Source of the DNA: a virus
DNA length: 64,000 nt
Direction: 5' to 3' (one strand)
IMG/VR virus record: IMGVR_UViG_3300027861_000020
This document shows positions 4,979-62,240 of this stretch, in pieces; positions within the stretch are counted from its first letter, which is position 1, and every line of letters begins with the position of its first letter. Under the pieces are notes generated by a model. It was given only the letters and a program-made list of their open reading frames with translations, did no database searches and was not told the origin of the DNA. A program made the position numbers and the translations under genes.

Positions 4979-4980
4979 TT

Positions 4981-49303: not shown

Positions 49304-49369
49304 TTTTCCAGCAATAAATAAATTATTTTCTTTATAATTGTTAATGATAATTATAGAAAGGTTATAAAA

Positions 49370-49642
49370 ATGGAAATAATGATAATGGTTCTTTTGGGTA
49401 TTTTTTGGACATGTTTTTTGGTCTTTGTTTGTTTTTGGGATGGATATGAACCTAAACAAAAACAAATAAAAGAAAAACAATATTATTGTGAACGATGTGG
49501 AGCTAAATCAACTTTTAGACCTAATTTAGTAGATAAAGATATAATTCTTTTTTCTATCTGTACTCGTTGTGAAGAAGAGATTGAAGATAGAGTAAGAGAA
49601 GAAGTAAGGCAAGAGATTATTGATAGTATTTCCAGCAAGTAA
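49370..49642 (+). CDS. membrane-anchored zinc-ribbon protein
   Basis: 90 aa; cassette at 49304; TM then CERCG...CTRCE. Confidence 0.55.
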   Translation: MEIMIMVLLGIFWTCFLVFVCFWDGYEPKQKQIKEKQYYCERCGAKSTFRPNLVDKDIILFSICTRCEEEIEDRVREEVRQEIIDSISSK

Positions 49643-49692
49643 AATTTTATTTATTGTATGATTGTTAATAATAATTATTTAAGGAATAGAAA

Positions 49693-50031
49693 ATGAATAC
49701 GACAATAATACTTAATAGAGAAGATGTTAATAATCCTCTTCATCCTAATCTTTGGGAAGACTTTATGGATACTTTGGGTCTGGATCATGAAACAACAGAA
49801 GTTTGTCTTGAAAAATCTAAACATGATGATAATAAAGTAATTAAAACTAAAAAGTTTAAAGTTGGGGATTGTGTTACCCTTTCAAATAATACAACCCTTG
49901 TCTGCGGGACAATTACAGCAATTGATTTTAATGGAGAACAAAATACTTATTATGTTGAATGGGATGATGTTCTTCATTATGGAGGAAGCATCACCGAAAA
50001 CTGGTATGATGAAGATGATTTAAAAATATAA
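49693..50031 (+). CDS. hypothetical protein
   Basis: 112 aa ORF, SD TTAAGGAATAGAAAATG. Confidence 0.55.
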   Translation: MNTTIILNREDVNNPLHPNLWEDFMDTLGLDHETTEVCLEKSKHDDNKVIKTKKFKVGDCVTLSNNTTLVCGTITAIDFNGEQNTYYVEWDDVLHYGGSITENWYDEDDLKI

Positions 50032-50060
50032 TGCTTGCTTGCTTTTTTTTGTTGCGGATA

Positions 50061-50088
50061 GCCCTTATCTTAATTGATAGGGGCTTTT
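50061..50088 (+). terminator. intrinsic terminator, conserved hairpin family
   Basis: GCCCTTATCTTAATTGATAGGGGC + TTTT. Confidence 0.55.
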
Positions 50089-50144
50089 CCAGCATTTTAT
50101 TCTTTAATTTCTTTATAATTGTTAATAAATTAAGGGATATAAAA

Positions 50145-50327
50145 ATGGCTAAAAGTAAAAAACAAAAAAAAATAGAAAAGACAATGAAGAAAAGGGCTGA
50201 AAGACCTGATATTATGAATATTAGGAAGTCTATGCCCTGTCCCACCGGAACTAAAGTTATTAAAGATAAGAAAAAAGAACAAAATAAAAAACAATGTCGA
50301 AATAAGGATATTAAGAATGAAGAATAG
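50145..50327 (+). CDS. basic small protein
   Basis: 60 aa from SD-supported ATG (track 50031 ORF is an upstream read-through of terminator+cassette). Confidence 0.5.
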   Translation: MAKSKKQKKIEKTMKKRAERPDIMNIRKSMPCPTGTKVIKDKKKEQNKKQCRNKDIKNEE

Positions 50328-50427
50328 AAAAGGTTTTCCAGATAAAAAAATACCTGAATAATTTTCCAGCAAATAGTATTTTATTATCATTATAATTGTT
50401 GATAATAAAGTTTTAAGGAATAAAAAG

Positions 50428-50622
50428 ATGGCAAAAAAGAAAAGTAAAAGAAGAAGAATTAGTAAAGATATTTTAGATTTAAGAAAACAATTTGAAATGG
50501 ATAATACAGATTCTGTTTTTGTATCACCAAAAGCATTAAAAGAAAAAGTACCTAATAGAAAAGAAAGAAAAGATTATTTAAGAGCAATAGTAAATGAATT
50601 TGATAGAATGTTAGCTGTTTAA
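50428..50622 (+). CDS. basic small protein
   Basis: 64 aa; cassette at 50362, SD TTAAGGAATAAAAAGATG. Confidence 0.5.
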   Translation: MAKKKSKRRRISKDILDLRKQFEMDNTDSVFVSPKALKEKVPNRKERKDYLRAIVNEFDRMLAV

Positions 50623-50629
50623 TTGATAT

Positions 50630-50765
50630 ATGGGTATAGCTCAGTCAGGTTAGAGCGTTCGTTTGACATCCTTAACGTATTTACTAGTAATACGGGAAGC
50701 GTACCATTTAGGATCCTTTGGTACGAGTTGGCGAAAGGTCGCAAGTTCGAATCTTGCTACTCATT
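50630..50765 (+). tRNA. tRNA gene (anticodon region GAC, Val?) carrying a 61-nt insertion in the anticodon loop
   Basis: hand fold: acceptor ATGGGTA/TACTCAT, U8A9, D-arm GCTC-AGTCAGGTTA-GAGC, anticodon stem TTCGT/GCGAA split by 50669-50729, variable AGGTC, T-arm GCAAG-TTCGAAT-CTTGC, discriminator T. Confidence 0.6.
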
Positions 50766-50942
50766 GCTTTTATTGTAGATACTAAATGTATTGAATAACG
50801 AGGCATCATAGTCGTAAGGACTAAAATCTATCCACGCCTACAATCCGAAAGGAAGAGAATAAAAGGGGTAGTTATATTAAGATTTTCCAGCAAATAAGAT
50901 TTTATTATCTTTATAATTGTTAATAATTTAAGGAATAAAAAA

Positions 50943-51068
50943 ATGATAGTTAATTGGGAAAATAGATGTCTTATATGTGATTATATATGGGATTCTGAAT
51001 CATGCACCGAATCATGTCCAGAATGTGGAGAAACAGATGATATTTATTCAGAAGAGGTAGAAGAATAA
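50943..51068 (+). CDS. zinc-ribbon peptide (41 aa)
   Basis: cassette at 50883; CLIC...CPEC. Confidence 0.45.
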   Translation: MIVNWENRCLICDYIWDSESCTESCPECGETDDIYSEEVEE

Positions 51069-51151
51069 TTTTCCAGCAAGTAAGAAAATAATTCGATAAG
51101 TAATATAAGTAAGTAATTTAATTAAGTTAATATTTTTTAAGGAAGAAAAGA

Positions 51152-51301
51152 ATGACCAGAGTATGTCCAGTATGTAAAAGACCTTGTAATGATTATAATG
51201 CAGATTATTGCCTTTGTGGGGCTGATTTGCCTGACCCTAAGTTTGCTTCAAGAGATAATAGCAATTTTAGGTCTAGGGATGATAATTATGATGATTATTG
51301 A
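51152..51301 (+). CDS. Cys-rich small protein (49 aa)
   Basis: SD TTAAGGAAGAAAAGAATG; CPVCKRPC...CLCG. Confidence 0.45.
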   Translation: MTRVCPVCKRPCNDYNADYCLCGADLPDPKFASRDNSNFRSRDDNYDDY

Positions 51302-51620: not shown

Positions 51621-51684
51621 TTTTCCAGCAAATAAATTTTTATTTTCTTTATAATTGTTAATAAATTTTTTAAGGAATAATAAA

Positions 51685-52008
51685 ATGAGTTTTGATCTAA
51701 TGGAAACAGTAAAAATCCCTAGCGATATGTCTAAAAGAGAATTTTTTGTCACCGATACATGTATGTTTGTTCTTATAACAGGACTAAATGAACGTAATCA
51801 GATTTGCGTATTTGATGATGATTTAACAGACAAAGCTAGAGAGTATGCAGATGAAAATACTCCAGAATTAAATGTTTCATATTCAAACAGGGATAAGTTT
51901 GGTTTTGTAAACAAAGAGAGAATAGAATACTGGAGTAAATTATTCCACTTCTTTATCTGGGAATGGCTAGAAAAGAATAATACAATTTGTTTTATGAAAA
52001 GTCCATAA
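51685..52008 (+). CDS. hypothetical protein
   Basis: 107 aa; long-form cassette at 51621. Confidence 0.6.
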   Translation: MSFDLMETVKIPSDMSKREFFVTDTCMFVLITGLNERNQICVFDDDLTDKAREYADENTPELNVSYSNRDKFGFVNKERIEYWSKLFHFFIWEWLEKNNTICFMKSP

Positions 52009-52026: not shown

Positions 52027-52245
52027 ATGATATTAGATAAAATAATAACTAAAATAATAACTATAATAATGGCTATTGTATGGACTTTTGGGGCTGTTTT
52101 TTATATAGGGGCAGGGATTGTAGTTGCTAAAACAGCTAGTACAAGTTGTTTATTCATAATCTTCGGGGGATTCTGTATATTAGGGGGAGTTCTTATCTTG
52201 TTTATGACAGTAGCAATGTTAATAGAGAATTTTTCCAGCAAATAA
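52027..52245 (+). CDS. small membrane protein
   Basis: 72 aa, 2 TM, SD TAAGGGGAAATAATG. Confidence 0.5.
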   Translation: MILDKIITKIITIIMAIVWTFGAVFYIGAGIVVAKTASTSCLFIIFGGFCILGGVLILFMTVAMLIENFSSK

Positions 52246-52296
52246 ACTTTTATTTTCTTCATAATTGTTAATAATAAACTTTTTAAGGAATAAAAA
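52231..52296 (+). promoter_or_regulatory. long-form cassette (near-identical ~66-bp block)
   Basis: TTTTCCAGCAAATAAACTTTTATTTTCTTCATAATTGTTAATAATAAACTTTTTAAGGAATAAAAA. Confidence 0.6.
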
Positions 52297-52656
52297 ATGT
52301 TGACAATTAAAAAGAATAATCCAAAAACATTAAGAGAAAAACTAGAAAGTTTTAATATGTCGTTTGTTAGTATGACGACCATTGAAGAATGCGTAAATGC
52401 TTTTGATAAATATGAAAAACTTCCGCAAGCAACAAAAGATTCGGTTCAAGTAATTGCCGATATGTATAATCTTTTCTTTACTTTCGCACAAAAGCGAAAC
52501 AAGATGATGCTTGTCGGAATAGGCCAACCATATATAAGGGACGTTTATCTTTTTCCAGATGAAAAACTTGACAATTCTCAAAAATTCTTAAAGAATGCTC
52601 CCCAGTATATCTTGAATCCATTCGCTAGAAATAAGCTAGAGAAAATAGAGGACTAA
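52297..52656 (+). CDS. hypothetical protein
   Basis: 119 aa; long-form cassette at 52231. Confidence 0.6.
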   Translation: MLTIKKNNPKTLREKLESFNMSFVSMTTIEECVNAFDKYEKLPQATKDSVQVIADMYNLFFTFAQKRNKMMLVGIGQPYIRDVYLFPDEKLDNSQKFLKNAPQYILNPFARNKLEKIED

Positions 52657-52720
52657 TTTTCCAGCATTATAAGCTTTATTCTCTTTATAATTGTTAATAA
52701 TAAACTTTAAGGAATAAAAA

Positions 52721-53011
52721 ATGAGTTTAGATGTAAACAACGAAAAGCAATGGAAAGCTATAAATATAGATAATTCTGATTATGTTGGTATTATCGAAAT
52801 AAATGATTCTGTTTTTGAGATTGTCAAAACAGATAAACATCTGGTTTTTGGTTCGTCTACAAATATCGGATTATTGCAGTCTGGTTATATGGAAATAGAT
52901 GATTATTTCAGTATAGATGAAAATTTGCAAGCCCTTATTGAAAATATAGAAGTTTTTTATAGTTCCGGTTCATTATATGCGGTAGATATTGTATGCAATG
53001 AACGTATGTAG
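52721..53011 (+). CDS. hypothetical protein
   Basis: 96 aa; cassette at 52657. Confidence 0.55.
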   Translation: MSLDVNNEKQWKAINIDNSDYVGIIEINDSVFEIVKTDKHLVFGSSTNIGLLQSGYMEIDDYFSIDENLQALIENIEVFYSSGSLYAVDIVCNERM

Positions 53012-53806: not shown

Positions 53807-53875
53807 ATTTTCCAGCGTTATAAACTTTATTCTCTTTATAATTGTTAATAGCAATAACTTTTAAGGAATAAAAAA

Positions 53876-54223
53876 ATGTCAAATATAAATGAAATGACAA
53901 TGAAGTTGTTAAGGCAGTATAAACTACAAGATGAATTCCTAATAACAGCTATGGCTGACCAGATGTTTGAAGAGCTTATATTACTTGTCGAGGGGCAAGA
54001 GGAAAAAGAGCTAAGAAATCTTTTTTATCATGGAGTCAGAGAAGACGTTAGCGAGTATTTTGACCTTGTTAATAGGTATGCCGTAATGGAATTGGGATAT
54101 GAATTATCTCAAGAGGAAGTAGATGCAATTGTATCTATATGCGATGGATATGATAAAGGTAATTGGGGGGAAGAACATCTACAAGTAGCCTTGTCTGATT
54201 ATAAACAGACTCTTAAAATGTAA
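53876..54223 (+). CDS. hypothetical acidic protein
   Basis: 115 aa; cassette at 53808. Confidence 0.6.
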   Translation: MSNINEMTMKLLRQYKLQDEFLITAMADQMFEELILLVEGQEEKELRNLFYHGVREDVSEYFDLVNRYAVMELGYELSQEEVDAIVSICDGYDKGNWGEEHLQVALSDYKQTLKM

Positions 54224-54430
54224 AAGGAATAATTTTCCAGCATTTTAAAGTTAATTAACAGTATAAGAGTAACGGACGTAAAACAGTTTCCTATTTATTA
54301 GGTTGCCGTACCATCGGGGCAGACCCGTACCGAGTATGACGGGATAGCCCGATATCGGGGCAATGAAGTTAAGCCCAAAATGGCTGTTTTTGTAGATAAT
54401 ATGTATCTAACAGCTAAACCCTATTAGGGA

Positions 54431-54471
54431 GGGAAAGTCATTGACTATATGATATGGCTTTCCCTATTTTT
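54431..54471 (+). terminator. intrinsic terminator ending a GC-rich structured non-coding segment
   Basis: GGGAAAGTCATTGACTATATGATATGGCTTTCCC + TATTTTT. Confidence 0.5.
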
Positions 54472-54519
54472 CCAGCGTTATAAACTTTATTTACTGAATA
54501 ATTGTAAGGAATAAATAAA

Positions 54520-54789
54520 ATGGATTATGGTAAATATATAATTGTAGAGTCGAATTGTTCTCAAGCTATTCTTTTTGATAATACAATGTCCCATGATGAC
54601 TTTCTGGCTATGTTTAATAAAGATATAATTAAATCGGCAGGATTTTTTATCGTATCGGGAACAGGGTCTGAACATGACCAAGAAGATATAGAAGTAACTG
54701 TATTCGGAAAAAGTATTACTCTTGGATTAAAATCAGATGAAAAAGATGCATATTATATTAAAAGAATATTAAGAAAATCTCAATATTAA
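54520..54789 (+). CDS. hypothetical protein
   Basis: 89 aa; cassette at 54468 (short variant). Confidence 0.55.
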   Translation: MDYGKYIIVESNCSQAILFDNTMSHDDFLAMFNKDIIKSAGFFIVSGTGSEHDQEDIEVTVFGKSITLGLKSDEKDAYYIKRILRKSQY

Positions 54790-54858
54790 ATTTTCCAGCG
54801 TTATAAACTTTATTCTCTTTATAATTGTTAATAGCAATAACTTTTAAGGAATAAAAAA

Positions 54859-55551
54859 ATGTCAGTAATAGAAAAAGCAACTGAATTAAATAGACTTAGA
54901 AGAATTAAATTCCCTAAAACAGATGAACAAGGGGGAATGACGATTGATAAAGTCGTTAATGAATATAAGAAAAATATTTCTATTATTCTGGATGTCGTTC
55001 TATGGAAAATATGGGGAATCCAAGGGAAAGAAGTTATTGGATATAAGGGAAATGAAATATTTATAGACCCAATAAGACTAGAAAATTCTATTGATAAATC
55101 TATTGAGTTCTATGAAGAGGAATTAGGTCTTGAAAATATCAGAGAATGTGCTATTTGCGGTACATTAAGTCGTATATATTATCTTTGCGACCATTGCGAT
55201 ACCGCTGAAACAGGTCCAGTTTGTGCTGATTGCGTAGATTGGGAACGATTCGATGATTCTTATTTTTGCAAGGCTTGTCCAGATAGAAGCGATGTAAAAT
55301 GGGCTAAAAAGACTATAGACGGGCTATCTGCATCTAATGGGTATCTTTGCAATAGAAAAGTTGTAAAGTTGATTATGGACGAATATGGAGGCTCTATCGT
55401 CAAATGGGGAACAAAGTATTGGATTCAATTCGAACCAGCGTATAGGGCTTATTCAGACTTTGTTTATAAAGAGAAAAACTGTACCAGAGATGATTATAGA
55501 GTTTGGATAAATCAAGCCTCTATGTATAAGAAATGTCGAGAATGGAAGTAA
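54859..55551 (+). CDS. Cys-rich (multi zinc-finger-like) protein
   Basis: 230 aa; CAICG..CDHCD..CADC..CKAC; cassette at 54791. Confidence 0.65.
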   Translation: MSVIEKATELNRLRRIKFPKTDEQGGMTIDKVVNEYKKNISIILDVVLWKIWGIQGKEVIGYKGNEIFIDPIRLENSIDKSIEFYEEELGLENIRECAICGTLSRIYYLCDHCDTAETGPVCADCVDWERFDDSYFCKACPDRSDVKWAKKTIDGLSASNGYLCNRKVVKLIMDEYGGSIVKWGTKYWIQFEPAYRAYSDFVYKEKNCTRDDYRVWINQASMYKKCREWK

Positions 55552-55618: not shown

Positions 55619-56140
55619 ATGACTGATAATGAGATAAAACATAGACTTTGGGATGTCTATACAGAGCTTAAAAAAGAACATGATTTTGCTCTTGGGGCTT
55701 TATTTATCAAAGTATCAAAAAGACTAAGGAGTTCGGCAGGTAAATGTTTGTCTTATCCGAAACAAGACGTACATACGATTACAATGTCAAAGCCTTTACT
55801 GGACGAATTCGGTTGGGAAAGATTTGAAAAGAATTTCCGTCATGAATTGGCTCATGCTTATTGCTCAAAGAAATATGGAAAATGCAATCATAACCATATA
55901 TTTAAGAGAACTTGTGTCGCTTTTGGAGGTTCAATGAATCCTTCAATGGCAGGTTATGCATATAAAGAGGCCGCAACTACGGAATACGTAAAGACTATTA
56001 AAAAATATAAATATACTTGCCTTTGCGGAATAAGTATGGAATATGCTAAAAGAATGTCCGTAAAGATTAGAAATAGTCAGCGTCATACTTGTAGAAAATG
56101 TAAAACTCCAGTTGCTAAATGGAAAGAGGAAATGATTTAA
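55619..56140 (+). CDS. SprT-like zinc metallopeptidase-domain protein
   Basis: 173 aa; SSAGKCLSYPKQDVHTITMS...FRHELAHAY (SprT-like core with HExxH) plus C-terminal Cys/His zinc ribbon. Confidence 0.7.
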   Translation: MTDNEIKHRLWDVYTELKKEHDFALGALFIKVSKRLRSSAGKCLSYPKQDVHTITMSKPLLDEFGWERFEKNFRHELAHAYCSKKYGKCNHNHIFKRTCVAFGGSMNPSMAGYAYKEAATTEYVKTIKKYKYTCLCGISMEYAKRMSVKIRNSQRHTCRKCKTPVAKWKEEMI

Positions 56141-56207
56141 TTTTCCAGCAAATAGACTTTTATTTTTATTATAAATGTTAATAATAATAACTTTTAAGGA
56201 ATTAAAA

Positions 56208-56543
56208 ATGGGTCAATTATTGAATGAAATTTTTGAAGGACTAAAAGAGATTGTACTCTTTTCTGAAGATGTTGAAGCTCAGGAAAAGGCTCTTAAGATG
56301 TTGCTTAAGGTTCATCTAGAAACAAGCGGAATTATTGAAATTGACAATTTCCGTATTCCTAAAGCTGTTTATCAGGATGCCATTGCTCATATGAAAAATG
56401 GAGAAAAGATATCATGTATCAAGGTTCTCCGAAATGGTATTTTGAGAAACAATGAAGTCCTTGGTCTTAAAGAGGCTAAGCTATTGTCGGAAAGAATATC
56501 CATTATAGAGAAAATTCCTATGTCAAAAGGATATGAAGTATAA
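56208..56543 (+). CDS. hypothetical protein
   Basis: 111 aa; cassette at 56141. Confidence 0.6.
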   Translation: MGQLLNEIFEGLKEIVLFSEDVEAQEKALKMLLKVHLETSGIIEIDNFRIPKAVYQDAIAHMKNGEKISCIKVLRNGILRNNEVLGLKEAKLLSERISIIEKIPMSKGYEV

Positions 56544-56554: not shown

Positions 56555-56584
56555 GCCCTTATCTTAATTGATAGGGGCTTTTTT
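56555..56584 (+). terminator. intrinsic terminator, conserved hairpin family
   Basis: GCCCTTATCTTAATTGATAGGGGC + TTTTTT. Confidence 0.6.
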
Positions 56585-56647
56585 CCAGCATTTTAAATTT
56601 TATTTTCTTTATAATTGTTAATAATAATAACTTTTAAGGAATTGAAA
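56581..56647 (+). promoter_or_regulatory. long-form cassette
   Basis: TTTTCCAGCATTTTAAATTTTATTTTCTTTATAATTGTTAATAATAATAACTTTTAAGGAATTGAAA. Confidence 0.6.
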
Positions 56648-57079
56648 ATGCCAAAGAATATAATCAGCCATTGCCTTAAACCTCTTAATCGCAAAGCCGA
56701 AAATATCTTTTTTAAGATTATTGAAGGCGTAAAATGGGATGCCGCTAAATATATTGGCGAAAAAGGCAAAGCGTTTATGCAGGTTGTTGTCAAAAGAATA
56801 CCACACGATGCCATTTATGGTAAAGTATATGCAGTAGGTCATTATTATACACAAATGGGCGATAGAATGTCCGACCCTGAAATGACTTTCCTTGTTAATA
56901 CAGTTGATGGTAGAGTTTATCCTCTTTCTTTTGAACAACATGGGACGTTTGCAACTTACGAAACATCAGCGGTTTTTAAAGACGGAGAATATGTAGGCAA
57001 GTATAAAAAGATGAACAATGACCACAAAAACTTCGCTAATGGTTGGATGGAAAACATTAAACATCAGCAAAGTCTATAA
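56648..57079 (+). CDS. hypothetical protein
   Basis: 143 aa; cassette at 56581; terminator follows. Confidence 0.6.
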   Translation: MPKNIISHCLKPLNRKAENIFFKIIEGVKWDAAKYIGEKGKAFMQVVVKRIPHDAIYGKVYAVGHYYTQMGDRMSDPEMTFLVNTVDGRVYPLSFEQHGTFATYETSAVFKDGEYVGKYKKMNNDHKNFANGWMENIKHQQSL

Positions 57080-57093: not shown

Positions 57094-57144
57094 AGGAGGA
57101 AATCGTTTCCCTTATTCCTTAGCGGTTTCCTCCTCTTCTTTTTT
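57094..57144 (+). terminator. intrinsic terminator
   Basis: AGGAGGAAATCG...GGTTTCCTCCT + CTTCTTTTTT. Confidence 0.55.
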
Positions 57145-57210
57145 CCAGCATTTTAAGTTTTATTTTCATTATAATTGTTAGTAATAATAATAACTTTAAG
57201 GAATAAAAAA
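57141..57210 (+). promoter_or_regulatory. long-form cassette
   Basis: CCAGCA 57145-50, TATAAT 57170-75, SD AAGGAATAAAAAAATG. Confidence 0.6.
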
Positions 57211-57465
57211 ATGGATAATGATAATCTTCTCATATTACGGGTTCAAAGCAATTTTGGGATATTTCATATTTACCCAGTATGTCAAAAATCAAGAGCCTTT
57301 GCTCATATCGCAAACAAGAAAACTTTATCACCAAATGATTTAAAAGATATCGCTTTTATCGGCTTTCGTATTGCGTTTAATAATCTCCCAACGGAGAAAA
57401 CAGAACCTTATAACCAGAATGGATATAAAGGGTTTCAAAAGTTTTTAGATAATTGGAATGGTTAA
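57211..57465 (+). CDS. hypothetical protein
   Basis: 84 aa; cassette at 57141. Confidence 0.55.
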   Translation: MDNDNLLILRVQSNFGIFHIYPVCQKSRAFAHIANKKTLSPNDLKDIAFIGFRIAFNNLPTEKTEPYNQNGYKGFQKFLDNWNG

Positions 57466-57538
57466 AAAACATTTTCCAGCGTTGTTAGTTTTATTTTCTT
57501 TATAATTGTTAATAATAATAACTTTAAGGAATAATAAA

Positions 57539-57742
57539 ATGGAAGATAATCAGGTAAAAGTAGTTGCTCAAGTAAATAGAAAAGAAGGTACTTATAATCA
57601 TACCAGACAAATTCCTACATTTTTTGTCAATGCTTATTGTTTTGTCACCGCAAAGAGTATTGTAAAAGATATATTTAAAGGACAAAATATGTCTGGTCAA
57701 ATGGAAGATTCTAAAGGATATATGAAGAATTTTAACTTTTAA
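57539..57742 (+). CDS. hypothetical protein
   Basis: 67 aa; cassette at 57472. Confidence 0.5.
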   Translation: MEDNQVKVVAQVNRKEGTYNHTRQIPTFFVNAYCFVTAKSIVKDIFKGQNMSGQMEDSKGYMKNFNF

Positions 57743-57753
57743 GGAATAAAAAA

Positions 57754-58056
57754 ATGGGAAAAACAAACATTCCTGTAAAATGCGGTTGCGGTTGCGATGA
57801 ATATTTGGTAGACGATATTTCAGAAGAATTTCCAACGGCTGTAAAAGCAGAACAAAAGGGTAAGAATATCCTTATTCTTAGAAATATCAATCCCATAAAA
57901 CGGCTTGATGGAAAAATGGCTACTTATTCTCTTGAACATTGTTGGTTAAGAGATATTAAAGATACAACATCGGTATTAGGTAATGATTATTCCTATTGGC
58001 AGAAAAAAGAGCTAAACTGGAAAGAAAGTTTATTCGATCAAGTAAATCTTTTTTAA
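57754..58056 (+). CDS. hypothetical protein
   Basis: 100 aa, SD TTAAGGAATAAAAAAATG; CGCGC motif. Confidence 0.55.
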   Translation: MGKTNIPVKCGCGCDEYLVDDISEEFPTAVKAEQKGKNILILRNINPIKRLDGKMATYSLEHCWLRDIKDTTSVLGNDYSYWQKKELNWKESLFDQVNLF

Positions 58057-58126
58057 GATTTTCCAGCAAATAAACTCTTATTTTCTTTATAATTGTTAAT
58101 AATAATAACTTTTAAGGAATAAAAAA

Positions 58127-58354
58127 ATGGCAGACAAAGAAGTTTCAAAAGCAATAATAATTGATACGGAAGAAGGAATTAAGGGTTACAGAATTTTAGC
58201 TTTAAGGTCGGCTCTGAAACTTGAAGTTTTGGGAATGAAAAGACGGGGGCAATCGGTTTATTCTATCGTCAAACAAGAATTCGGTTTCAAGGGAAATAAA
58301 AAGAAAGTTCTGGATCAATTAAATAAGTATATTGAAGATAATTATAATCTTTAA
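58127..58354 (+). CDS. hypothetical protein
   Basis: 75 aa; cassette at 58059. Confidence 0.55.
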   Translation: MADKEVSKAIIIDTEEGIKGYRILALRSALKLEVLGMKRRGQSVYSIVKQEFGFKGNKKKVLDQLNKYIEDNYNL

Positions 58355-58553
58355 TACTAATAGAAGGGAAAGTCTGTTCCGGATAGGCTTTCTCTTCTTC
58401 TATTTTCCAGCATTTTATCTTTTAATTCCTTTATAATTGTTAATAGTAATAACTTTTAAGGAGTTAGAAATGAATGGTATGGATTTTTATACAGCAAGTT
58501 TTATATGTTTGTTTTTATGGGGTTTTTGGAAAATAACAGCTTAGGGGAAAATA

Positions 58554-58709: not shown

Positions 58710-58801
58710 TTTTCCATCTTGATATGAAATGGAATTTCCAGCGTTGTAAGTTTTATTTTCTTTATAATTGTTAATAATAATAACTTTTAAGGAATAAAAA
58801 A

Positions 58802-59281
58802 ATGAATAAAGCTCTCCTTATTATAGATATGCAAACGGGATTTAAAACAGCCCATGATGAAAAAACAATCGAAAATGTCCTTAAGCAAATAGATGAAGCC
58901 TATGAGAATGATTTGCCAATATTTATTTTAGAACATACAATAGATAGATTCGGATATACTTTGGAAATAATACGAGAATATTTAGACGATTATGATAATA
59001 AATATTACATAGAAAAATTTGAAGATGATGGAGGGGATGAACTAATTGAATATATTACAGAGGAAGATTATTCTATTGATGAATTTATTACTTGCGGAGT
59101 TAATATATCTTATTGCGTAGGAAAGACAATAAACAGCTTGGTAAAAGAATACAAAAAGATGATAACGCTTATATATGACGCTTGTAACTGTACTAATAAC
59201 AAAGATGACGCTTTCGATGGCTGTTATTGCGGTTATTTTTATAGCGATATATTTGAATCAGATAAAGTTTTAATACAATAA
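58802..59281 (+). CDS. hypothetical acidic protein
   Basis: 159 aa; cassette at 58734. Confidence 0.6.
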   Translation: MNKALLIIDMQTGFKTAHDEKTIENVLKQIDEAYENDLPIFILEHTIDRFGYTLEIIREYLDDYDNKYYIEKFEDDGGDELIEYITEEDYSIDEFITCGVNISYCVGKTINSLVKEYKKMITLIYDACNCTNNKDDAFDGCYCGYFYSDIFESDKVLIQ

Positions 59282-59372
59282 TTTTCCATCTTGATATGAA
59301 AAGAATTTTCCAGCATTTTAATTTTTATTTTCATTATAATTGTTAATAATAATAACTTTTAAGGAATTGAAA

Positions 59373-59564
59373 ATGACGACTAAAAAAATGATTGATGGCA
59401 AGGTTTACGAAATTGATGTTGACGAATTTGATATTGAAGCTGAAAAAGCAAGCAAGGCAATCAGGACTATGGCAGGCTTTGGTACTATCAAAAAGACTAT
59501 TAAAAAACGTCCTCCACAATGTTTCGCTATTACGGAATCGGCAATCAATAGATATTCAAAGTAA
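59373..59564 (+). CDS. hypothetical protein
   Basis: 63 aa; cassette at 59306. Confidence 0.5.
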   Translation: MTTKKMIDGKVYEIDVDEFDIEAEKASKAIRTMAGFGTIKKTIKKRPPQCFAITESAINRYSK

Positions 59565-59664
59565 TTAAAGGGGGCGAAAGTCCCCATTTTTATTTAATTT
59601 TCCAGCGTTATAAGTTTTATTTTCTTTATAATTGTTAATGATAATAACTTTTAAGGAATGAAAA

Positions 59665-59847
59665 ATGTCAAGAAAAATGCAAAGTTTCATCAAAGAAAAC
59701 AGAAAAGAAATTACAAAAAGAATCATTGAACTACATCCTGATACAGAAGCTCTTAAATCTATCAATGATGACGAACGCAGGGTAATGATTCTGAATGAGC
59801 CTGAATTGACAAAATGGGCAAGAAGTCAAGGAGTTGTAATCGACTAA
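59665..59847 (+). CDS. hypothetical protein
   Basis: 60 aa; cassette at 59598. Confidence 0.5.
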   Translation: MSRKMQSFIKENRKEITKRIIELHPDTEALKSINDDERRVMILNEPELTKWARSQGVVID

Positions 59848-59906
59848 ATAGTCAGGGAAAGTCCTTTATCAGGGGCTTTCTCTTTTTTCTTTTTAAGGAA
59901 ATAATA

Positions 59907-60325: not shown

Positions 60326-60465
60326 TCCTTATTCAATAAACGGATAAGAACCATACAATCTCTATCTACTAAACGGATAGGGATTGTATTTTATTATTTT
60401 CCAGCGTTTTATCTTTTATTTACTTTATAATTGTTAATGATGATAAACTTTTAAGGAATAAAAAA

Positions 60466-60600
60466 ATGAATTTGCTAATAACTAACGAAAAAGATAACGA
60501 ATCATATGAAAAACAATTCAATTCATATACAGATGCAAGGAATTGGATCATAAATCATCTGGACTTGTCGAAAAAATGGTCATGTACTGATATGGGATAG
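60466..60600 (+). CDS. small hypothetical protein (44 aa)
   Basis: cassette at 60397. Confidence 0.4.
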   Translation: MNLLITNEKDNESYEKQFNSYTDARNWIINHLDLSKKWSCTDMG

Positions 60601-60693
60601 TTTTCCAGCATTTTACAGTTTATTTTCTTTATAATTGTTAATGATAATAACTTTTAAGTAAATCAGAGATTTAATTTAAAAAGGAATTGAAAA

Positions 60694-60942
60694 ATGTTTA
60701 TAATAGAGAGAATCACAAATAAAAGAGAATTTTTAAGGACTAGCTTAGGAACTGTAATAAACTTTGCAACCAAAAAAGAAGCCATAGAATGTCTTGAAAG
60801 ACAACCTAATCATGAAGCCTTCCATGTTAGAAGACCTATAAAATCCGATTTTAAAGTTCGGAGTTTTAGAATGACTTTCAAAAAAGGATTTTATAGGTTG
60901 TATCTAAAGAATTCAATTAGCAATATTTCTCCAGCAATTTAA
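60694..60942 (+). CDS. hypothetical basic protein
   Basis: 82 aa; cassette at 60601 plus extra leader, SD AAAAAGGAATTGAAAAATG. Confidence 0.5.
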   Translation: MFIIERITNKREFLRTSLGTVINFATKKEAIECLERQPNHEAFHVRRPIKSDFKVRSFRMTFKKGFYRLYLKNSISNISPAI

Positions 60943-60995
60943 AGTTTATTCTCTTTATAATTGTTAATGATAATAACTTGTTTAAGGAATAAAAA

Positions 60996-61169
60996 ATGTC
61001 TGAATTGAAAAAAGCTTTAATGAGTAGTCAAGGTATTACTGGATCAGAAGCTGATGAAATTATTGAAGAGATGAAAAATAGAGTTCTTGACGAGGGGCAA
61101 GATCCAGAAGAAGTTCTGTACGAAGAAGGTCTTGAACCTGATTATGTTTTTGATCTTCTTGATTTTTAG
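60996..61169 (+). CDS. small acidic protein, family G paralog 2
   Basis: 57 aa; EEVLYEEGLEPDYVFDLL. Confidence 0.5.
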   Translation: MSELKKALMSSQGITGSEADEIIEEMKNRVLDEGQDPEEVLYEEGLEPDYVFDLLDF

Positions 61170-61188
61170 TTTTCTTTTGTCATATTTA

Positions 61189-61229
61189 GGAGGGAGTAAT
61201 GCTTTAATTATTCCCTCCGCCTTTCTTTT
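61189..61229 (+). terminator. intrinsic terminator
   Basis: GGAGGGAGTAATGCTTTAATTATTCCCTCC + GCCTTTCTTTT. Confidence 0.55.
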
Positions 61230-61295
61230 CCAGCAATTTAAAGTTTATTCTCTTTATAATTGTTAATGATAATAACTTGTTTAAGGAATAAAAAA

Positions 61296-61472
61296 ATGAA
61301 TATTTATGATGATGATTTTGATGATGTAGATAACTTTGAAGAGACTGATGATTATTATGATGACGAAAATGAATCGTCTCTTGAAGAACTTTATGAAAAT
61401 GAGGATTTTGCTCAAGATGGAGATTTTCATAATATGGAATATGACTCCGAAATGGGATGTTGGGGGTCTTGA
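61296..61472 (+). CDS. highly acidic small protein
   Basis: 58 aa, Asp/Glu-rich; cassette at 61226. Confidence 0.5.
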   Translation: MNIYDDDFDDVDNFEETDDYYDDENESSLEELYENEDFAQDGDFHNMEYDSEMGCWGS

Positions 61473-61498
61473 TTAAAATACATGTTTTTACTTTTCAG

Positions 61499-61534
61499 GG
61501 GGAAGTAAGCTACGCGATTACTTCCCCCATTTTC
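61499..61534 (+). terminator. intrinsic terminator
   Basis: GGGGGAAGTAAGCTACGCGATTACTTCCCCC + ATTTT. Confidence 0.6.
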
Positions 61535-61596
61535 CAGCATTTTAAACTTTATTTTCTTTATAATTGTTAATGATAATAACTTTTAAGGAATAAAAA
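61530..61596 (+). promoter_or_regulatory. long-form cassette
   Basis: identical over ~60 bp to the 60090 copy. Confidence 0.6.
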
Positions 61597-61839
61597 ATGA
61601 GAGCCGATTTTATCAAAGTAGAATACAAAACTTATCTTTTTAATGGCGAAAAATTTACTGTCCGAAAAGACTTTTGGGATTATTTTGATGCCTGTCCTGA
61701 TTGCTCTGTCATAACAAAAACGCCTATTAGCTTTGGGGTTGGTAGAGATGACTTTACCCAAAATGAGAGCAATCTGGGCGTTGTATGGGCTGATGGCGAT
61801 AAAGATATGATGTTAATCTCAAGACCTCGTATGTATTAA
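61597..61839 (+). CDS. hypothetical protein
   Basis: 80 aa; cassette at 61530. Confidence 0.55.
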   Translation: MRADFIKVEYKTYLFNGEKFTVRKDFWDYFDACPDCSVITKTPISFGVGRDDFTQNESNLGVVWADGDKDMMLISRPRMY

Positions 61840-61961
61840 GAGCCCAAGGGTCTTGAACCCCTAACAACCTCCTTATTCTGAAAAGAGTAAGGGGGTTTTC
61901 CAGCATTTTGATTCTTATTCCCTTTATAATTGTTAATAATAAACTTTTTAAGGAAAATAAA

Positions 61962-62171
61962 ATGTTTAATAAAAATAAATTCCCCAAAGCCCCAAAACTT
62001 GATGGTTGTTTTCCGGTTTTCCCGAAAAAGAAAAGACAATTTAAATTGTTTAAAAAAATGCTTTGTCTAATTGGTATTCATGATAGAGAAACTATTGAAT
62101 ATTGGGAAGACGAAAGTAGTTCAGATAATTTCGATCAATGTAAACATTGTAAAAAATTATTGCCATGGTAA
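61962..62171 (+). CDS. hypothetical protein
   Basis: 69 aa; cassette at 61896; C-terminal CKHCKK. Confidence 0.5.
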   Translation: MFNKNKFPKAPKLDGCFPVFPKKKRQFKLFKKMLCLIGIHDRETIEYWEDESSSDNFDQCKHCKKLLPW

Positions 62172-62240
62172 TTTTCCAGCGTTTTAAACTTTATTCTCTT
62201 TATAATTGTTAATGATGATAAACTTTTAAGGAATAAAAAA
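62172..62240 (+). promoter_or_regulatory. long-form cassette (CCAGCG variant)
   Basis: TTTTCCAGCGTTTTAAACTTTATTCTCTTTATAATTGTTAATGATGATAAACTTTTAAGGAATAAAAAA. Confidence 0.6.

What the first reader, a model, noticed from the sequence alone, without database searches (positions are those of the whole stretch)
49304..62240. A ~70-bp cassette repeated before ~30 consecutive genes in the 3' third of the window
- From ~49.3 kb onward the sequence between stop codon and next ATG is essentially the same block: TTTTCCAGCRTTTTAARYTTTATTTTCTTTATAATTGTTAATRATAATAACTTTTAAGGAATAAAAAATG.
- Only a few substitutions separate copies. Copies at 60090 and 61530 are identical over about 60 bp.
- The ORF-finder artefact (M)LIIITFKELKM is this cassette read from its internal TTG.
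- Such long identical repeats every 300-700 bp provide ideal substrates for homologous recombination. They may serve to shuffle, duplicate or swap gene cassettes, as in a promoter-gene-terminator module library.
- The many paralog families in the window are consistent with this.
Basis: seen in the sequence. Interest (0 to 1): 0.6.

Follow-up and report, generated by a model that had tools for sequence, protein, structure and literature searches.

The report
Repeated promoter cassette that shuffles phage genes
An uncultivated, AT-rich phage places nearly the same ~65-base "stop, promoter, ribosome-site" block in front of dozens of small genes, and related genomes have gained, lost and reordered genes exactly at these blocks; this resembles the PeSL cassettes of T4-type phages but uses a different, undescribed promoter box (TTCCAGC).

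Summary
The ~65-70 nt cassette occurs 32-33 times in 49.3-62.3 kb. Its core TTCCAGC occurs 82 times on the + strand of the whole window and 3 times on the minus strand. TTTTCCAGC occurs 62 times against 0.7 expected.

Anatomy: stop codon TAA, often fused to the core; sometimes a terminator hairpin; TTCCAGC; exactly 20 nt; TATAAT; TGTTAAT; an A/T leader; AAGGA; ATG.

The core-to-TGTTAAT distance is invariant: 44/49 copies here and 81/85 in relatives. The leader length varies.

Two distant lineages keep TTCCAGC but use 17- or 18-nt spacers to TATAAT/TAAAAT. I read this as a two-part promoter plus a translation start, which makes each ORFan gene its own transcription unit.

Related metagenome contigs show indels and reorderings bounded by cassettes. 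Two 99.3%-identical contigs differ by exactly one cassette plus one 90-aa gene, with the crossover inside TTTTCCAGCATTTTA.

The closest known system is the PeSL of T4-type phages. This element lacks a sigma-70 -35 box and an integral stem-loop, so it is a variant, not a member.

Unresolved: what reads TTCCAGC, and why about 10 "short" copies have the core but no TGTTAAT. The paralog argument is weak: 7 families, one of them in the region.

The parts
49304..49372 (+). long-form cassette; core 49306, TATAAT 49333, TGTTAAT 49339, ATG 49370
49628..49695 (+). long-form cassette; the upstream ORF reads through the core; ATG 49693
50085..50147 (+). long-form cassette directly after a hairpin; ATG 50145
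50362..50430 (+). long-form variant (TGTTGAT); ATG 50428
50883..50945 (+). long-form cassette; ATG 50943
51069..51154 (+). core with atypical downstream part; ATG 51152
51621..51687 (+). long-form cassette; ATG 51685
52231..52299 (+). long-form cassette (CATAAT); the upstream ORF reads through the core; ATG 52297
52657..52723 (+). long-form cassette; left boundary of the gene 52721-53011 unit that is absent from L124
53014..53083 (+). long-form cassette; right boundary of that unit; ATG 53081
53808..53878 (+). long-form cassette after terminator 53774-53803; ATG 53876
54233..54270 (+). core, 20 nt, then TATAAG/AGTAAC in front of a GC-rich non-coding segment that has its own terminator
54468..54522 (+). 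shortened cassette: core, AATAAT, TGT, then AAGGAA directly; ATG 54520
54791..54861 (+). long-form cassette, identical to the copy at 53808 over the whole cassette, in front of an unrelated gene; ATG 54859
55552..55621 (+). variant cassette (TATAAT, TGTAAGG, second SD); ATG 55619
56141..56210 (+). long-form cassette (TATAAA, internal ATG gives the MLIIITFKELKM artefact); ATG 56208
56581..56650 (+). long-form cassette after a hairpin; ATG 56648
57141..57213 (+). long-form variant (TGTTAGT) after a hairpin; ATG 57211
57472..57541 (+). long-form cassette; ATG 57539
57731..57756 (+). 3' part of the cassette alone (AACTTTTAAGGAATAAAAAAATG) fused to the end of the upstream ORF; no core, no hexamer
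   Evidence: read from the sequence
58059..58129 (+). long-form cassette; ATG 58127
58403..58473 (+). long-form cassette after terminator 58362-58398; ATG 58471 (24-aa ORF)
58711..58804 (+). long-form cassette with the extra upstream module TTTCCATCTTGATATGAAATGGAA; ATG 58802
59283..59375 (+). long-form cassette with the same extra upstream module; ATG 59373
59598..59667 (+). long-form cassette after terminator 59570-59585; ATG 59665
60397..60468 (+). long-form cassette after terminator 60353-60389; ATG 60466
60601..60696 (+). long-form cassette with a longer leader; ATG 60694
60927..60998 (+). long-form cassette with a mutated core (TTCTCCAGC) that the upstream ORF reads through; ATG 60996
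61226..61298 (+). long-form cassette after terminator 61189-61218; apart from the core mutation, identical to the copy at 60927 from the core to the SD, in front of an unrelated gene; ATG 61296
61530..61599 (+). long-form cassette, identical to the copy at 60090 for 67 nt; ATG 61597
61896..61964 (+). long-form cassette after a hairpin; ATG 61962
62172..62243 (+). long-form cassette; ATG 62241
62575..62620 (+). core with a TATATTATAAGGG-type downstream part; only a 32-aa ORF follows
62812..62860 (+). core (AATTCCAGC) with a TATAATTATAAGAAGTAA downstream part; no ORF follows
63117..63165 (+). last core of the field, followed by a GC-rich non-coding segment
3765..3831 (+). long-form cassette (TATAAA) after a hairpin
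8980..9051 (+). long-form cassette (GATAAT)
14045..14092 (+). long-form cassette (TATAAT)
19080..19151 (+). long-form cassette (weak hexamer)
24083..24151 (+). long-form cassette (TATAAT) after a hairpin
29082..29150 (+). long-form cassette (TATAAT)
29594..29684 (+). long-form cassette with the extra upstream TTTCCAT...GAAA module
31775..31844 (+). long-form cassette, TAAAAT-type hexamer shifted by 1 nt
34561..34625 (+). long-form cassette, TAAAAT type
34964..35033 (+). long-form cassette (weak hexamer ATAGAT)
35362..35428 (+). long-form cassette (TATAAT)
35717..35786 (+). long-form variant (TGTCAAT)
37032..37101 (+). long-form cassette, TAAGAT type; lies upstream of the minus-strand nuclease gene
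38117..38193 (+). long-form cassette; first + strand unit after the minus-strand nuclease gene
39016..39081 (+). long-form cassette, TAAGAT type, after a hairpin
39899..39991 (+). long-form cassette with the extra upstream module; in front of the lysozyme gene
40932..40999 (+). long-form cassette (TGTAAAT); the upstream ORF reads through the core
43300..43373 (+). long-form cassette (TTTAAT)
45994..46060 (+). long-form cassette (TAAAAT)
2548..2586 (+). short form: TAA, TT, core, 13 nt, SD-like G run, ATG at offset 34
6787..6825 (+). short form, ATG at offset 34
20749..20787 (+). short form, ATG at offset 34; the upstream ORF reads through the core
24878..24916 (+). short form, ATG at offset 34
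30097..30135 (+). short-form-like, weak SD, ATG at offset 34
31170..31208 (+). short form, ATG at offset 34
32546..32584 (+). short form, ATG at offset 34; orthologous short form in L143
40739..40777 (+). short form directly after a strong hairpin (z = -5.5)
42370..42408 (+). short form, ATG at offset 34
43658..43695 (+). short form, ATG at offset 33
44825..44863 (+). short form, ATG at offset 34
5214..5222 (+). core inside an ORF (possibly chance or a relic)
9955..9963 (+). core after TAA, atypical downstream part
10924..10932 (+). core after TAA, atypical downstream part
12697..12705 (+). core after TAA; TATAATTGTAAAT lies 6 nt further downstream than usual
16874..16882 (+). core at the end of a ~700-nt non-coding stretch
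17633..17641 (+). core, atypical downstream part
18348..18356 (+). core (AATTCCAGC); two minus-strand cores lie just upstream at 18269 and 18330
21534..21542 (+). core read through by the upstream ORF; TATAATTGTTAAT lies 6 nt further downstream than usual
22567..22575 (+). core after a hairpin, atypical downstream part
25940..25948 (+). core followed by GTGTTAAT, 1 nt closer than usual
26811..26819 (+). core at the 3' end of gene 26007-26810, followed by the convergent minus-strand nuclease gene
27729..27737 (+). core in front of the first + strand gene after the minus-strand nuclease gene
32806..32814 (+). core inside an ORF
36096..36104 (+). core; TATAATTGTTAAT lies 6 nt further downstream than usual
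41299..41307 (+). core at the end of an ORF
41830..41838 (+). core, atypical downstream part
44467..44475 (+). core followed by TTTATAATATAAGAAAT, a variant also seen in L144, L147 and L141
53774..53803 (+). terminator-like hairpin whose T run merges into TTTTCCAGC
58362..58398 (+). terminator-like hairpin directly upstream of a core
59570..59585 (+). terminator-like hairpin directly upstream of a core
59854..59883 (+). terminator-like hairpin followed by SD and ATG 59907, with no core
60353..60389 (+). terminator-like hairpin directly upstream of a core
61189..61218 (+). terminator-like hairpin directly upstream of a core
62760..62793 (+). terminator-like hairpin upstream of the core at 62814

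Best explanation
The block is a composite expression cassette of an uncultivated lytic-type phage, probably with a bacterial host.

Anatomy, reading 5' to 3':
- A built-in stop codon: TAA two bases before the core.
- In about a third of copies, an intrinsic-terminator hairpin whose U tract is the TTTT of the motif.
- An invariant upstream box, TTCCAGC.
- A spacer of fixed length: 20 nt in this lineage.
- A -10-type hexamer, TATAAT.
- A conserved start region, TGTTAAT. I predict the transcription start inside it or just after it.
- An A/T-rich leader of variable length.
- A Shine-Dalgarno AAGGA, then ATG 7-8 nt later.

Each small ORFan gene thereby becomes its own transcription and translation unit. 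I infer, without having shown it, that TTCCAGC takes the role of a -35 element.

Because about 45 nt of each copy is nearly the same, the cassettes also act as portable homology. Recombination between two cassettes deletes a 'gene + cassette' unit, and the reverse reaction inserts one. Related genomes show exactly such events.

Shown: the anatomy, the geometry, its conservation across lineages, and the cassette-bounded indels and reorderings.
For: Motif statistics and strand bias.

Position: the core lies in 74 of 88 intergenic gaps of at least 30 nt. The order is always stop, hairpin, core, hexamer, SD, ATG. Seven + strand terminator-like hairpins were found in 46-64 kb; six lie just upstream of a core, and the seventh (59854-59883) is followed directly by SD and ATG without one.

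Rigid geometry:
- TGTWAAT lies exactly 33 nt after the first T of the core in 44/49 copies here and 81/85 in relatives. The hexamer is TATAAT in 30/44.
- The distance from TGTTAAT to the SD varies.

Conservation across lineages:
- At about 51% protein identity the core is unchanged.
- The spacer is 17 nt in L155 (10/14 copies, TATAAT in 13/14, often preceded by TGT as in an extended -10).
- It is 18 nt in L158 (9/12 copies, mostly TAAAAT).
- It is 20 nt in the window clade (29/34 and 25/29).
- 17-18 nt is the canonical -35/-10 distance (established knowledge of sigma-70 promoters).

Other points:
- A core, 20 nt, then TATAAG also precedes a GC-rich non-coding segment that ends in its own terminator, at 54235-54465.
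- The cassette RNA has no structure of its own, z about 0.

Recombination:
- L162 against L161/L160.
- L124 hybrid cassette.
- L150/L128 shared alternative order, and the L151, L148 and L143 arrangements.
- Identical cassettes in front of unrelated genes: 53808/54791; 60927/61226 apart from one core base.
- Spacer length is lineage-specific but uniform across dozens of copies within each genome, which implies homogenisation.
Against: - There is no transcript data, so promoter activity and the start site are inferred.
- The simple sigma-70 scan finds no excess of -35/-10 pairs (97 against 98.7 expected). TTCCAGC does not resemble TTGACA.
- In this lineage the spacer is 20 nt, or 21 nt if the box is taken as the hexamer TTCCAG; either is long for a sigma-70-type promoter.
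- About 10 short-form copies have the core 13 nt before an SD, with ATG at offset 34. A start site set by a hexamer at the usual place would fall inside the ORF. One of these copies directly follows a strong hairpin. The core therefore has, or also has, a role that does not need the TGTTAAT half.
- In shortened copies (54470; L155:764) only 3-4 nt separate the hexamer from the SD, which is awkward for canonical start-site spacing.
- Spacer identity within a genome set is only slightly higher than between sets (0.71 against 0.64-0.69).
- All relatives are short-read metagenome contigs. Only some junctions are replicated in independent samples.
Confidence: 0.6

Rival explanations
1. TTCCAGC is not part of the promoter. 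It is the asymmetric binding site of a phage regulator (a 'stoperator'-like road-block or shut-off site), or an RNA-level signal in read-through transcripts (a processing or translational operator site). The TATAAT/T-rich part alone is a -10-only host promoter.
For: - Core-only and short-form copies exist without TGTTAAT, and at least one is conserved in a divergent relative: L143:2565, orthologous to 32548.
- The core is strictly oriented with transcription.
- It sits exactly 2 nt after the stop codon in 24 copies and is read through by the upstream ORF in about 10.
- The core is invariant across lineages while the downstream block is lineage-specific.
Against: - The spacing between core and hexamer has no indels across more than 120 copies, even though the spacer is made of A/T runs, whereas the leader length varies freely. 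Two independent elements would not need that.
- Where a terminator precedes the cassette, the core lies after the U tract and before the predicted start. It would then be absent from both the upstream and the downstream RNA.
- No repressor or integrase was found in the window.
Confidence: 0.2
2. TAATTTTCCAGCAAAT is itself a compact promoter for a phage-encoded RNA polymerase that starts a few bases downstream of the core. The TATAAT/TGTTAAT block is a second, host-type promoter, so long-form genes have tandem early and late promoters and short-form genes have only the phage one.
For: - It explains the short forms, including 40741, which directly follows a strong hairpin yet must be transcribed.
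- The conserved stretch is about 14-17 nt, with an A/T flank on each side of a GC-containing centre. That layout recalls T7-type promoters (from memory).
Against: - It does not explain the fixed core-to-hexamer distance or its lineage-specific value.
- No RNA polymerase gene was found in the window or in the 10 kb downstream. The rest of the genome is unknown.
Confidence: 0.12
3. The cassettes are sites of a dedicated site-specific recombination system (integron-like attC sites or similar). The gene units are moved by a recombinase, not by general homologous recombination.
For: - The array consists of single-gene units in one orientation, each bounded by the same site.
- The one well-resolved crossover lies within the 15 nt that contain the invariant core.
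Against: - The cassette has no inverted-repeat or hairpin structure.
- No integrase or recombinase family was hit in the window.
- Each unit carries its own promoter-like part, unlike integron cassettes.
- The L124 hybrid suggests a crossover further inside the cassette, although that comparison is between sequences about 80% identical.
Confidence: 0.04
4. The apparent shuffling is an assembly artefact: short-read assemblers joined unrelated segments through the shared ~65-nt repeat.
For: All relatives are short contigs of 1-5 kb, and many end inside a cassette, which shows that the repeat disturbs assembly.
Against: - The same alternative arrangements recur in independent samples and assemblies. 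L160 (ENA) and L161 (JGI) are 99.96% identical over 2.4 kb spanning several cassettes. L128 and L150 share a junction at 82% identity.
- The ENA contigs carry the k141 prefix. From my own knowledge of MEGAHIT naming, that means a final k-mer of 141, which is longer than the repeat.
Confidence: 0.04

Closest known systems
PeSL (promoter-early stem-loop) cassettes of T4-type phages (Arbiol et al. 2010, PMC2839356; Comeau et al. 2014, PMC4122927)
   Same: - Repeated intergenic blocks that run from the stop codon of the upstream gene through a promoter to the SD and start codon of the next gene.
- Concentrated in front of ORFans in plastic regions, with about 50 per genome.
- Indels between close relatives are bounded by the blocks: one genome has cassette, ORFan, cassette where the other has a single cassette.

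   Different: - PeSLs contain the E. coli sigma-70 -35/-10 consensus. Here the -35 place is taken by TTCCAGC at 20 nt from the hexamer (17-18 nt in other lineages).
- PeSLs have a stem-loop as an integral part. Here the hairpin is optional, lies upstream of the core and varies in sequence.
- Density is higher here: 82 cores in 60 kb, and 33 one-gene units in 13 kb.
- Core-only short forms exist here.
- The phage is not shown to be T4-like.
- Mini-circles were not tested.
Host-takeover module in the terminal redundancy of Bacillus phage SPO1 (Stewart et al. 1998; from memory)
   Same: A run of about two dozen very small early genes, each or nearly each with its own strong promoter and strong ribosome-binding site, in one orientation.
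   Different: The SPO1 promoters are ordinary host sigma-A promoters. No shared 65-nt cassette and no cassette-bounded shuffling have been described there.
T4 middle promoters (MotA box plus sigma-70 -10, 'sigma appropriation'; from memory)
   Same: A phage-specific box replaces the -35 element at a fixed distance from an ordinary -10 hexamer.
   Different: The MotA box (TGCTTtA) is centred at -30. TTCCAGC lies further upstream. No MotA or AsiA homologue was found in the part of the genome that is available.
Stoperators of cluster A mycobacteriophages and start-associated sequences of cluster K (Brown et al. 1997; Pope et al. 2011; from memory)
   Same: Short asymmetric motifs, dozens per genome, all oriented with transcription, in short intergenic spaces at or overlapping stop and start codons.
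   Different: Those are 13-bp repressor sites (or SD-linked motifs) in temperate phages and are not tied at a fixed distance to a -10 hexamer. Here there is no repressor, no integrase, and rigid coupling to TATAAT.
Integron gene-cassette arrays (from memory)
   Same: A one-orientation array of single-gene units separated by a recurring site, with gain, loss and reordering of units.
   Different: attC sites are imperfect palindromes recombined by IntI, and integron cassettes lack promoters. Here the site is unstructured and promoter-like, and no integrase is present.

Membership tests
PeSL cassettes (T4-type phages) | Repeated intergenic motif, mostly upstream of ORFans in variable regions | tested here: met
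   82 cores, present in 74/88 gaps of at least 30 nt. Nearly all flanking genes have no family assignment.
PeSL cassettes (T4-type phages) | Contains a sigma-70 consensus promoter: a -35 TTGACA-like box, about 17 nt, then TATAAT | tested here: not met
   TATAAT is present, but no TTGACA-like hexamer lies 16-18 nt upstream. The sigma-70 scan shows no excess (97 against 98.7). TTCCAGC occupies that side, 20 nt away.
PeSL cassettes (T4-type phages) | A stem-loop (terminator/attenuator) is a constituent of the motif | tested here: not met
   The conserved cassette does not fold (z -0.5 to +0.5). Hairpins occur upstream of about 12 of 32 copies in 49-62 kb and differ in sequence.
PeSL cassettes (T4-type phages) | Bounded 5' by the upstream stop codon and 3' by the SD and start codon | tested here: met
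   TAA lies exactly 2 nt before the core in 24 copies. AAGGA lies 7-8 nt before the ATG.
PeSL cassettes (T4-type phages) | Indels and replacements between close relatives are bounded by the motif | tested here: met
   L162 against L161/L160; L124; L150/L128; L151.
PeSL cassettes (T4-type phages) | Excised mini-circles carrying one gene and one chimeric cassette | not testable with these tools
   Needs outward-facing PCR or long reads on phage DNA.
PeSL cassettes (T4-type phages) | Host genome is a T4-type myovirus | tested here: inconclusive
   No DNA match to any deposited phage. Protein matches are only distant and scattered. No structural or replication genes are available.
Integron attC array | The site is an imperfect inverted repeat that folds as a hairpin | tested here: not met
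   No structure beyond shuffles.
Integron attC array | Adjacent tyrosine recombinase (IntI) | tested here: not met
   No integrase family among the window proteins scanned or in the precomputed Pfam hits. The rest of the genome has not been seen.
Stoperator-type repressor sites | Asymmetric site, one orientation relative to transcription, in short intergenic spaces near stop codons | tested here: met
   82 on + against 3 on -.
Stoperator-type repressor sites | Bound by a phage repressor; temperate life style | not testable with these tools
   No repressor or integrase was detected in the window. Binding cannot be tested here.
Sigma-70-family bipartite promoter (generic) | Two conserved elements at a fixed 16-18 nt distance, with a TAnnnT hexamer downstream | tested here: inconclusive
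   Met in lineages L155 (17 nt) and L158 (18 nt). In the window clade the distance is fixed at 20 nt.
Sigma-70-family bipartite promoter (generic) | Transcripts start 5-9 nt after the hexamer | not testable with these tools
   No transcript data.

The most novel reading that the evidence does not exclude
TTCCAGC defines a so far undescribed promoter class, read by a phage-specified factor (a sigma-like protein or an appropriator of the host polymerase). The factor co-evolves with a lineage-specific spacer of 17, 18 or 20 nt. The 60-kb field of more than 80 units would then be a phage 'ORFan library' that turns over by cassette-to-cassette recombination. In effect it would be an integron-like gene-capture array that needs no integrase and in which every captured gene arrives with its own expression signals.
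Probability: 0.3. Interest if true: 0.6.

Novelty: new variant of a known kind. Interest (0 to 1): 0.45.

Why it matters
- It extends the PeSL idea beyond T4-type coliphages and vibriophages to an unrelated, uncultivated phage group. In that idea, phage expression signals double as portable recombination sites that let accessory genes be swapped without breaking expression. The group was found in at least 13 metagenome samples (8 JGI sets in the DNA scan, 4 more via protein look-ups, 3 ENA assemblies, 1 Logan run).
- It offers an unusually clean natural experiment: two 99.3%-identical genomes that differ by one gene-plus-cassette unit.
- The invariant TTCCAGC box, with its lineage-specific spacer, gives a concrete handle for finding the transcription factor or polymerase that reads it.
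- The cassette is a ready-made compact promoter/RBS module for low-GC hosts.
- Practically, such arrays break short-read assemblies, so this kind of phage region is probably under-represented in viral catalogues. No copy was found in IMG/VR.

Tried and rejected
Searches that found nothing useful:
- Megablast of the region against 50,697 phage records: no match.
- tblastn of three proteins: only distant hits.
- IMG/VR pattern scans: two strict patterns gave nothing. One loose pattern gave 120 single chance hits, loci L002-L121, which should be ignored.
- GTDB genome scan: one chance hit in a Treponema MAG, with no array there.
- L127 (OKTE01) from the metagenome scan is also a chance hit.
- Full-text search for the motif strings: only primers and unrelated sequences.
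- Rfam found only the tRNA.
- Walking off the ends of the window: the first protein is not on record and another gave only a 1.2-kb contig. Proteins outside the window cannot be looked up.

Readings considered and rejected:
- Archaeal BRE/TATA. It is attractive because of the tRNA intron and RtcB. I rejected it because the phage has a membrane-anchored GH24 lysozyme, its RtcB is closest to bacterial ones, L155's box after the core (AAAAGAAAA) is not TATA-like, and the SD would be cut by the predicted start.
- Leaderless mRNAs for the short forms. Rejected for this lineage because all of them keep an SD-like G run 8-13 nt before the ATG.
- Mini-ORF or leader peptide starting at the internal ATG/TTG. 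Rejected because that codon overlaps the hexamer and would lie upstream of the predicted start.
- Chi-like sites or nick sites. Rejected because the position relative to stop codon, hexamer and SD is too exact.
- Strong concerted evolution of the spacer sequence. The signal is only weak. The clearer signal is the lineage-specific spacer length.

Full report
**1. What is there**

The window is 29% G+C, and almost all genes are on the + strand.
- The repeat finder returns 32-33 in-register copies between 49304 and 62240.
The copies at 60090 and 61530 are identical for 67 nt.
- The (M)LIIITFKELKM ORFs arise where the cassette's internal ATG/TTG is in frame with the real ATG.

The element is larger than reported.
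- Its core TTCCAGC occurs 82 times on the + strand between 2.5 and 63.1 kb, and 3 times on the minus strand.
- TTTTCCAGC occurs 62 times against 0.72 expected.
- The core lies in 74 of 88 intergenic gaps of at least 30 nt and in 2 of 60 shorter gaps. It therefore punctuates the whole region into about 80 units.
- The field stops at 63.1 kb. The next 10 kb, read from an overlapping ENA contig (L152), hold one copy.

**2. Anatomy**

Three forms share the core.
- Long form, 44 copies, including nearly all in 49-62 kb: TTCCAGC, 20 nt, TATAAT, TGTTAAT, 12-20 nt of A/T leader, AAGGA, 7-8 nt, ATG.
- Short form, about 10 copies: TTCCAGC, 13 nt, an SD-like G run, ATG at offset 33-34, and no TGTTAAT.
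- Atypical, 28 copies. Four of these (54235, 62577, 62814, 63119) have a TATAAG/TATATA-type element at the hexamer position and stand in front of segments with no ORF, or only a 32-aa one.

Upstream of the core:
- TAA lies exactly 2 nt before the core in 24 copies, so TAATTTTCCAGC carries a built-in stop.
- In about 10 copies the upstream ORF reads through the core.
- Terminator-like hairpins, where present, lie upstream of the core, and their T run merges with the TTTT of the motif. About 12 of the 32 copies in 49-62 kb have one.
- The cassette itself has no secondary structure beyond shuffled controls.

**3. Geometry**

- TGTWAAT lies exactly 33 nt after the first T of the core in 44 of 49 window copies. 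The same holds in 81 of 85 copies in related contigs.
- The hexamer in front of it is TATAAT in 30 of 44 copies.
- The 20-nt spacer consists of A/T runs but has no length variation, whereas the leader between TGTTAAT and the SD varies by up to 8 nt. This argues that the core and the hexamer/start region are read together.

**4. Relatives**

Where relatives were not found:
- No deposited phage resembles the region.
- IMG/VR holds no copy of the cassette.
- One hit in 185,579 genomes is chance.

Where relatives were found:
- A strict pattern scan of JGI metagenomes found 29 true contigs of 1-5 kb from 8 metagenome sets.
- Protein-based look-ups added 8 more contigs from ENA and JGI.
- Their genes are 50-87% identical in protein to window genes. 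All carry the cassette in front of nearly every gene.

Conservation of the cassette:
- TTCCAGC is invariant in every lineage.
- The closer relatives (Ga0233412/5, Ga0307992, Ga0102934) keep the 20-nt spacer and TATAATTGTTAAT.
- Two distant lineages at about 51% protein identity differ. L155 has TTCCAGC, 17 nt, TATAAT, often with TGT in front as in an extended -10. L158 has TTCCAGC, 18 nt, TAAAAT.
- A distance of 17-18 nt is the canonical -35/-10 spacing of sigma-70-family promoters (established knowledge).
- Spacer length is uniform across the dozen or more copies of each genome but differs between lineages. That requires either homogenisation of copies or co-evolution with the reading protein.
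- Spacer sequence shows only a weak lineage signal: 0.71 identity within sets against 0.64-0.69 between sets, with 0.44 expected by chance.

**5. Recombination at the cassettes**

- **L162 against L161/L160.** L162 (ENA ERZ27250502, the sample that also holds the window's own sequence) and L161 (JGI Ga0233412) are 99.3% identical on both sides of a 340-bp difference. L160 (ENA ERZ27250271) has the L161 arrangement at 99.96% identity. L162 has cassette, 90-aa gene, cassette where L161 and L160 have one cassette. The single cassette matches L162's left copy in the upstream flank and its right copy from the first variable site onward. The crossover therefore lies within TTTTCCAGCATTTTA. The extra gene is a 61%-identical homologue of window gene 54520-54789, which sits elsewhere in the window's order.
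- **L124.** It joins the homologues of genes 52297 and 53081 through one cassette. The 5' part of that cassette resembles the window's 52657 copy, and its 3' part (AATAATAATAAC) resembles the 53014 copy. The window has gene 52721-53011 between them.
- **L150 and L128.** They come from different metagenomes, are 82% identical, and share the order 56648 > 57539 > 57211. The window has 56648 > 57211 > 57539.
- **L148 and L151.** L148/L161 has 53081 > 57754 > new gene > 55619. L151 lacks seven window genes between 58.1 and 62.2 kb and has a 52297 homologue inserted after 57754.
- **Identical cassettes before unrelated genes.** Within the window, the same cassette precedes unrelated genes at 53808/54791 (identical copies) and at 60927/61226 (identical apart from one core base).

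Assembly chimeras cannot be excluded for every contig. However, arrangements recur across samples and assemblers. The ENA contigs also carry the k141 prefix, which from my own knowledge of MEGAHIT naming means a k-mer longer than the repeat.

**6. Interpretation**

The simplest reading is a composite expression cassette whose homology also makes it a recombination site.
- For the long forms that make up the finding, I take TTCCAGC as the upstream (-35-like) element, TATAAT as the -10, and the start at or just after TGTTAAT.
- This gives a leader of about 25 nt that holds the SD.
TTCCAGC is unlike TTGACA, the generic sigma-70 scan sees nothing, and 20 nt is a long spacer. A phage-specified factor, or a host with an unusual -35 preference, is therefore plausible.

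Observations that do not fit cleanly:
- The short forms. One of them (40741) directly follows a strong hairpin.
- Shortened copies in which the SD begins 3-4 nt after the hexamer (54470; L155:764).

These keep two rivals alive: the core as an independent regulator or RNA site, and the core as a compact promoter for a phage polymerase. A site-specific, integron-like system is unlikely, because the site has no palindrome and no recombinase was found.

**7. Host and phage**

Evidence on the host:
- The window encodes RtcB, whose nearest homologues (57-58% identity) are bacterial.
- It encodes a GH24 lysozyme with an N-terminal hydrophobic segment.
- SD-led genes and hairpin/T-run terminators also point to a bacterial host.

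Other proteins in the window:
- An SPFH/Band-7 protein and a cold-shock-domain protein.
- HNH and endonuclease VII-like nucleases.
- Roughly 140 proteins have no family assignment.

No sigma factor, RNA polymerase, MotA/AsiA, repressor or integrase was found in the 64 kb window or in the 10 kb downstream. The rest of the genome has not been seen.

**8. Comparison with known systems**

PeSLs of T4-type phages are the closest match (PMC2839356, PMC4122927).
- Shared: the stop-to-start layout, the preference for ORFans in plastic regions, and the 'cassette, ORFan, cassette against single cassette' polymorphism.
- Not met here: two defining PeSL features, the sigma-70 consensus -35/-10 pair and an integral stem-loop.

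I therefore file this element as a variant of that kind, not as a member. Resemblances to the SPO1 host-takeover module, T4 MotA-dependent promoters, mycobacteriophage stoperators and integrons are from memory. They serve as analogies only.

**9. Verdict**

The primary role of the cassette is most likely gene expression.
- Interest is moderate. The principle has been known since 2010. The promoter box, its lineage-specific geometry, the density of the array and the very clean indel are new.

Noticed in passing
window 50630-50765 (+); L160:1303-1438: tRNA-Val(GAC) interrupted by a 61-63 nt insert in the anticodon loop. Rfam tRNA scores 52 bits. ARAGORN finds it only with the intron option. At the orthologous place, L160 has a tRNA-like gene with the same 5' half but a different insert and T arm, called Arg(CCG) with a 47-nt intron. 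A short intron at this position is typical of archaea and eukaryotes, not bacteria or phages. The RtcB RNA ligase gene lies 1.3 kb upstream (48056-49303).
   Followed up: partly
window 50766-50884 (+); L160:1439-1553: The non-coding stretch after the tRNA is 92.5% identical to L160. That is more conserved than neighbouring genes of other relatives (about 70-85%). No Rfam match. It may be part of a larger RNA together with the split tRNA.
   Followed up: partly
window 54262-54465 (+): A GC-rich (~45%) non-coding segment behind a core, 20 nt, then TATAAG, ending in its own terminator hairpin. It folds better than shuffles (z = -2.4). No Rfam match and no homologue in the related contigs held. 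Candidate small RNA.
   Followed up: partly
window 62575-63420 (+); L151, L144: The end of the motif field: three cores with no ORF, or only a 32-aa one, behind them; a GC-rich segment at 63140-63260; then a ~160-nt A/T-rich gap. After that comes a tightly packed operon without cassettes (NADAR, NUDIX, RNase H and PRTase in L152). The stretch is conserved in L151 and L144 at 75-86%. It may be a module boundary, an origin or a genome end.
   Followed up: partly
window 26864-27571 (-) and 37311-37955 (-): The only convincing minus-strand genes are two 51%-identical paralogues that hit PHROG 'endonuclease VII' (His-Me/HNH-like) and no Pfam family. Each is flanked by + strand cores, as if inserted into an intergenic spacer. 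They are likely free-standing homing endonuclease genes.
   Followed up: partly
window 47187-48014 (+): A 275-aa protein with two tandem HNH endonuclease domains (PHROG E = 2e-32; 72% DNA self-similarity between the halves), directly upstream of RtcB.
   Followed up: partly
window 29594, 39899, 58711, 59283 (+); also L161:1360 and L162:1182: A sub-family of cassettes carries an extra ~30-nt module before the core, TTTCCATCTTGATATGAAA(T)GGAA, which contains a small inverted repeat (TTCCAT..ATGGAA) and a degenerate core-like TTTTCCAT. The copies are dispersed over 30 kb and are present in relatives.
   Followed up: no
window 2550, 6789, 20751, 24880, 30099, 31172, 32548, 40741, 42372, 43660, 44827: Short forms place the ATG at offset 33-34 from the core. 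That is within 1-2 nt of where long forms have the G of TGTTAAT. Most have a TAnnnT hexamer right before the ATG. In lineage L158 two such units lack any SD. This may be a coincidence of descent or a hint of a common start point. Unexplained.
   Followed up: partly
window 291-1570, 4317-5310, 5325/9535/10975, 16950/17738: Tandem or dispersed paralogue families of small membrane-like or Cys-rich proteins lie in the 5' half. Most are not separated by cassettes, so they arose by a route other than cassette recombination.
   Followed up: partly
window 18269 and 18330 (-), 18350 (+): Two of the three minus-strand cores lie within 80 nt of a + strand core, forming an inverted arrangement in a ~220-nt gap between genes. 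Not examined.
   Followed up: no
L001 / L152 against the window: Two ENA contigs from one sample (k141_4144202 and k141_2375551) carry the window sequence; L001 is 99.98% identical to it. The first ends at window position 53546 and the second starts near 53400, so this assembly broke inside the cassette array. Many related contigs end inside a cassette.
   Followed up: yes
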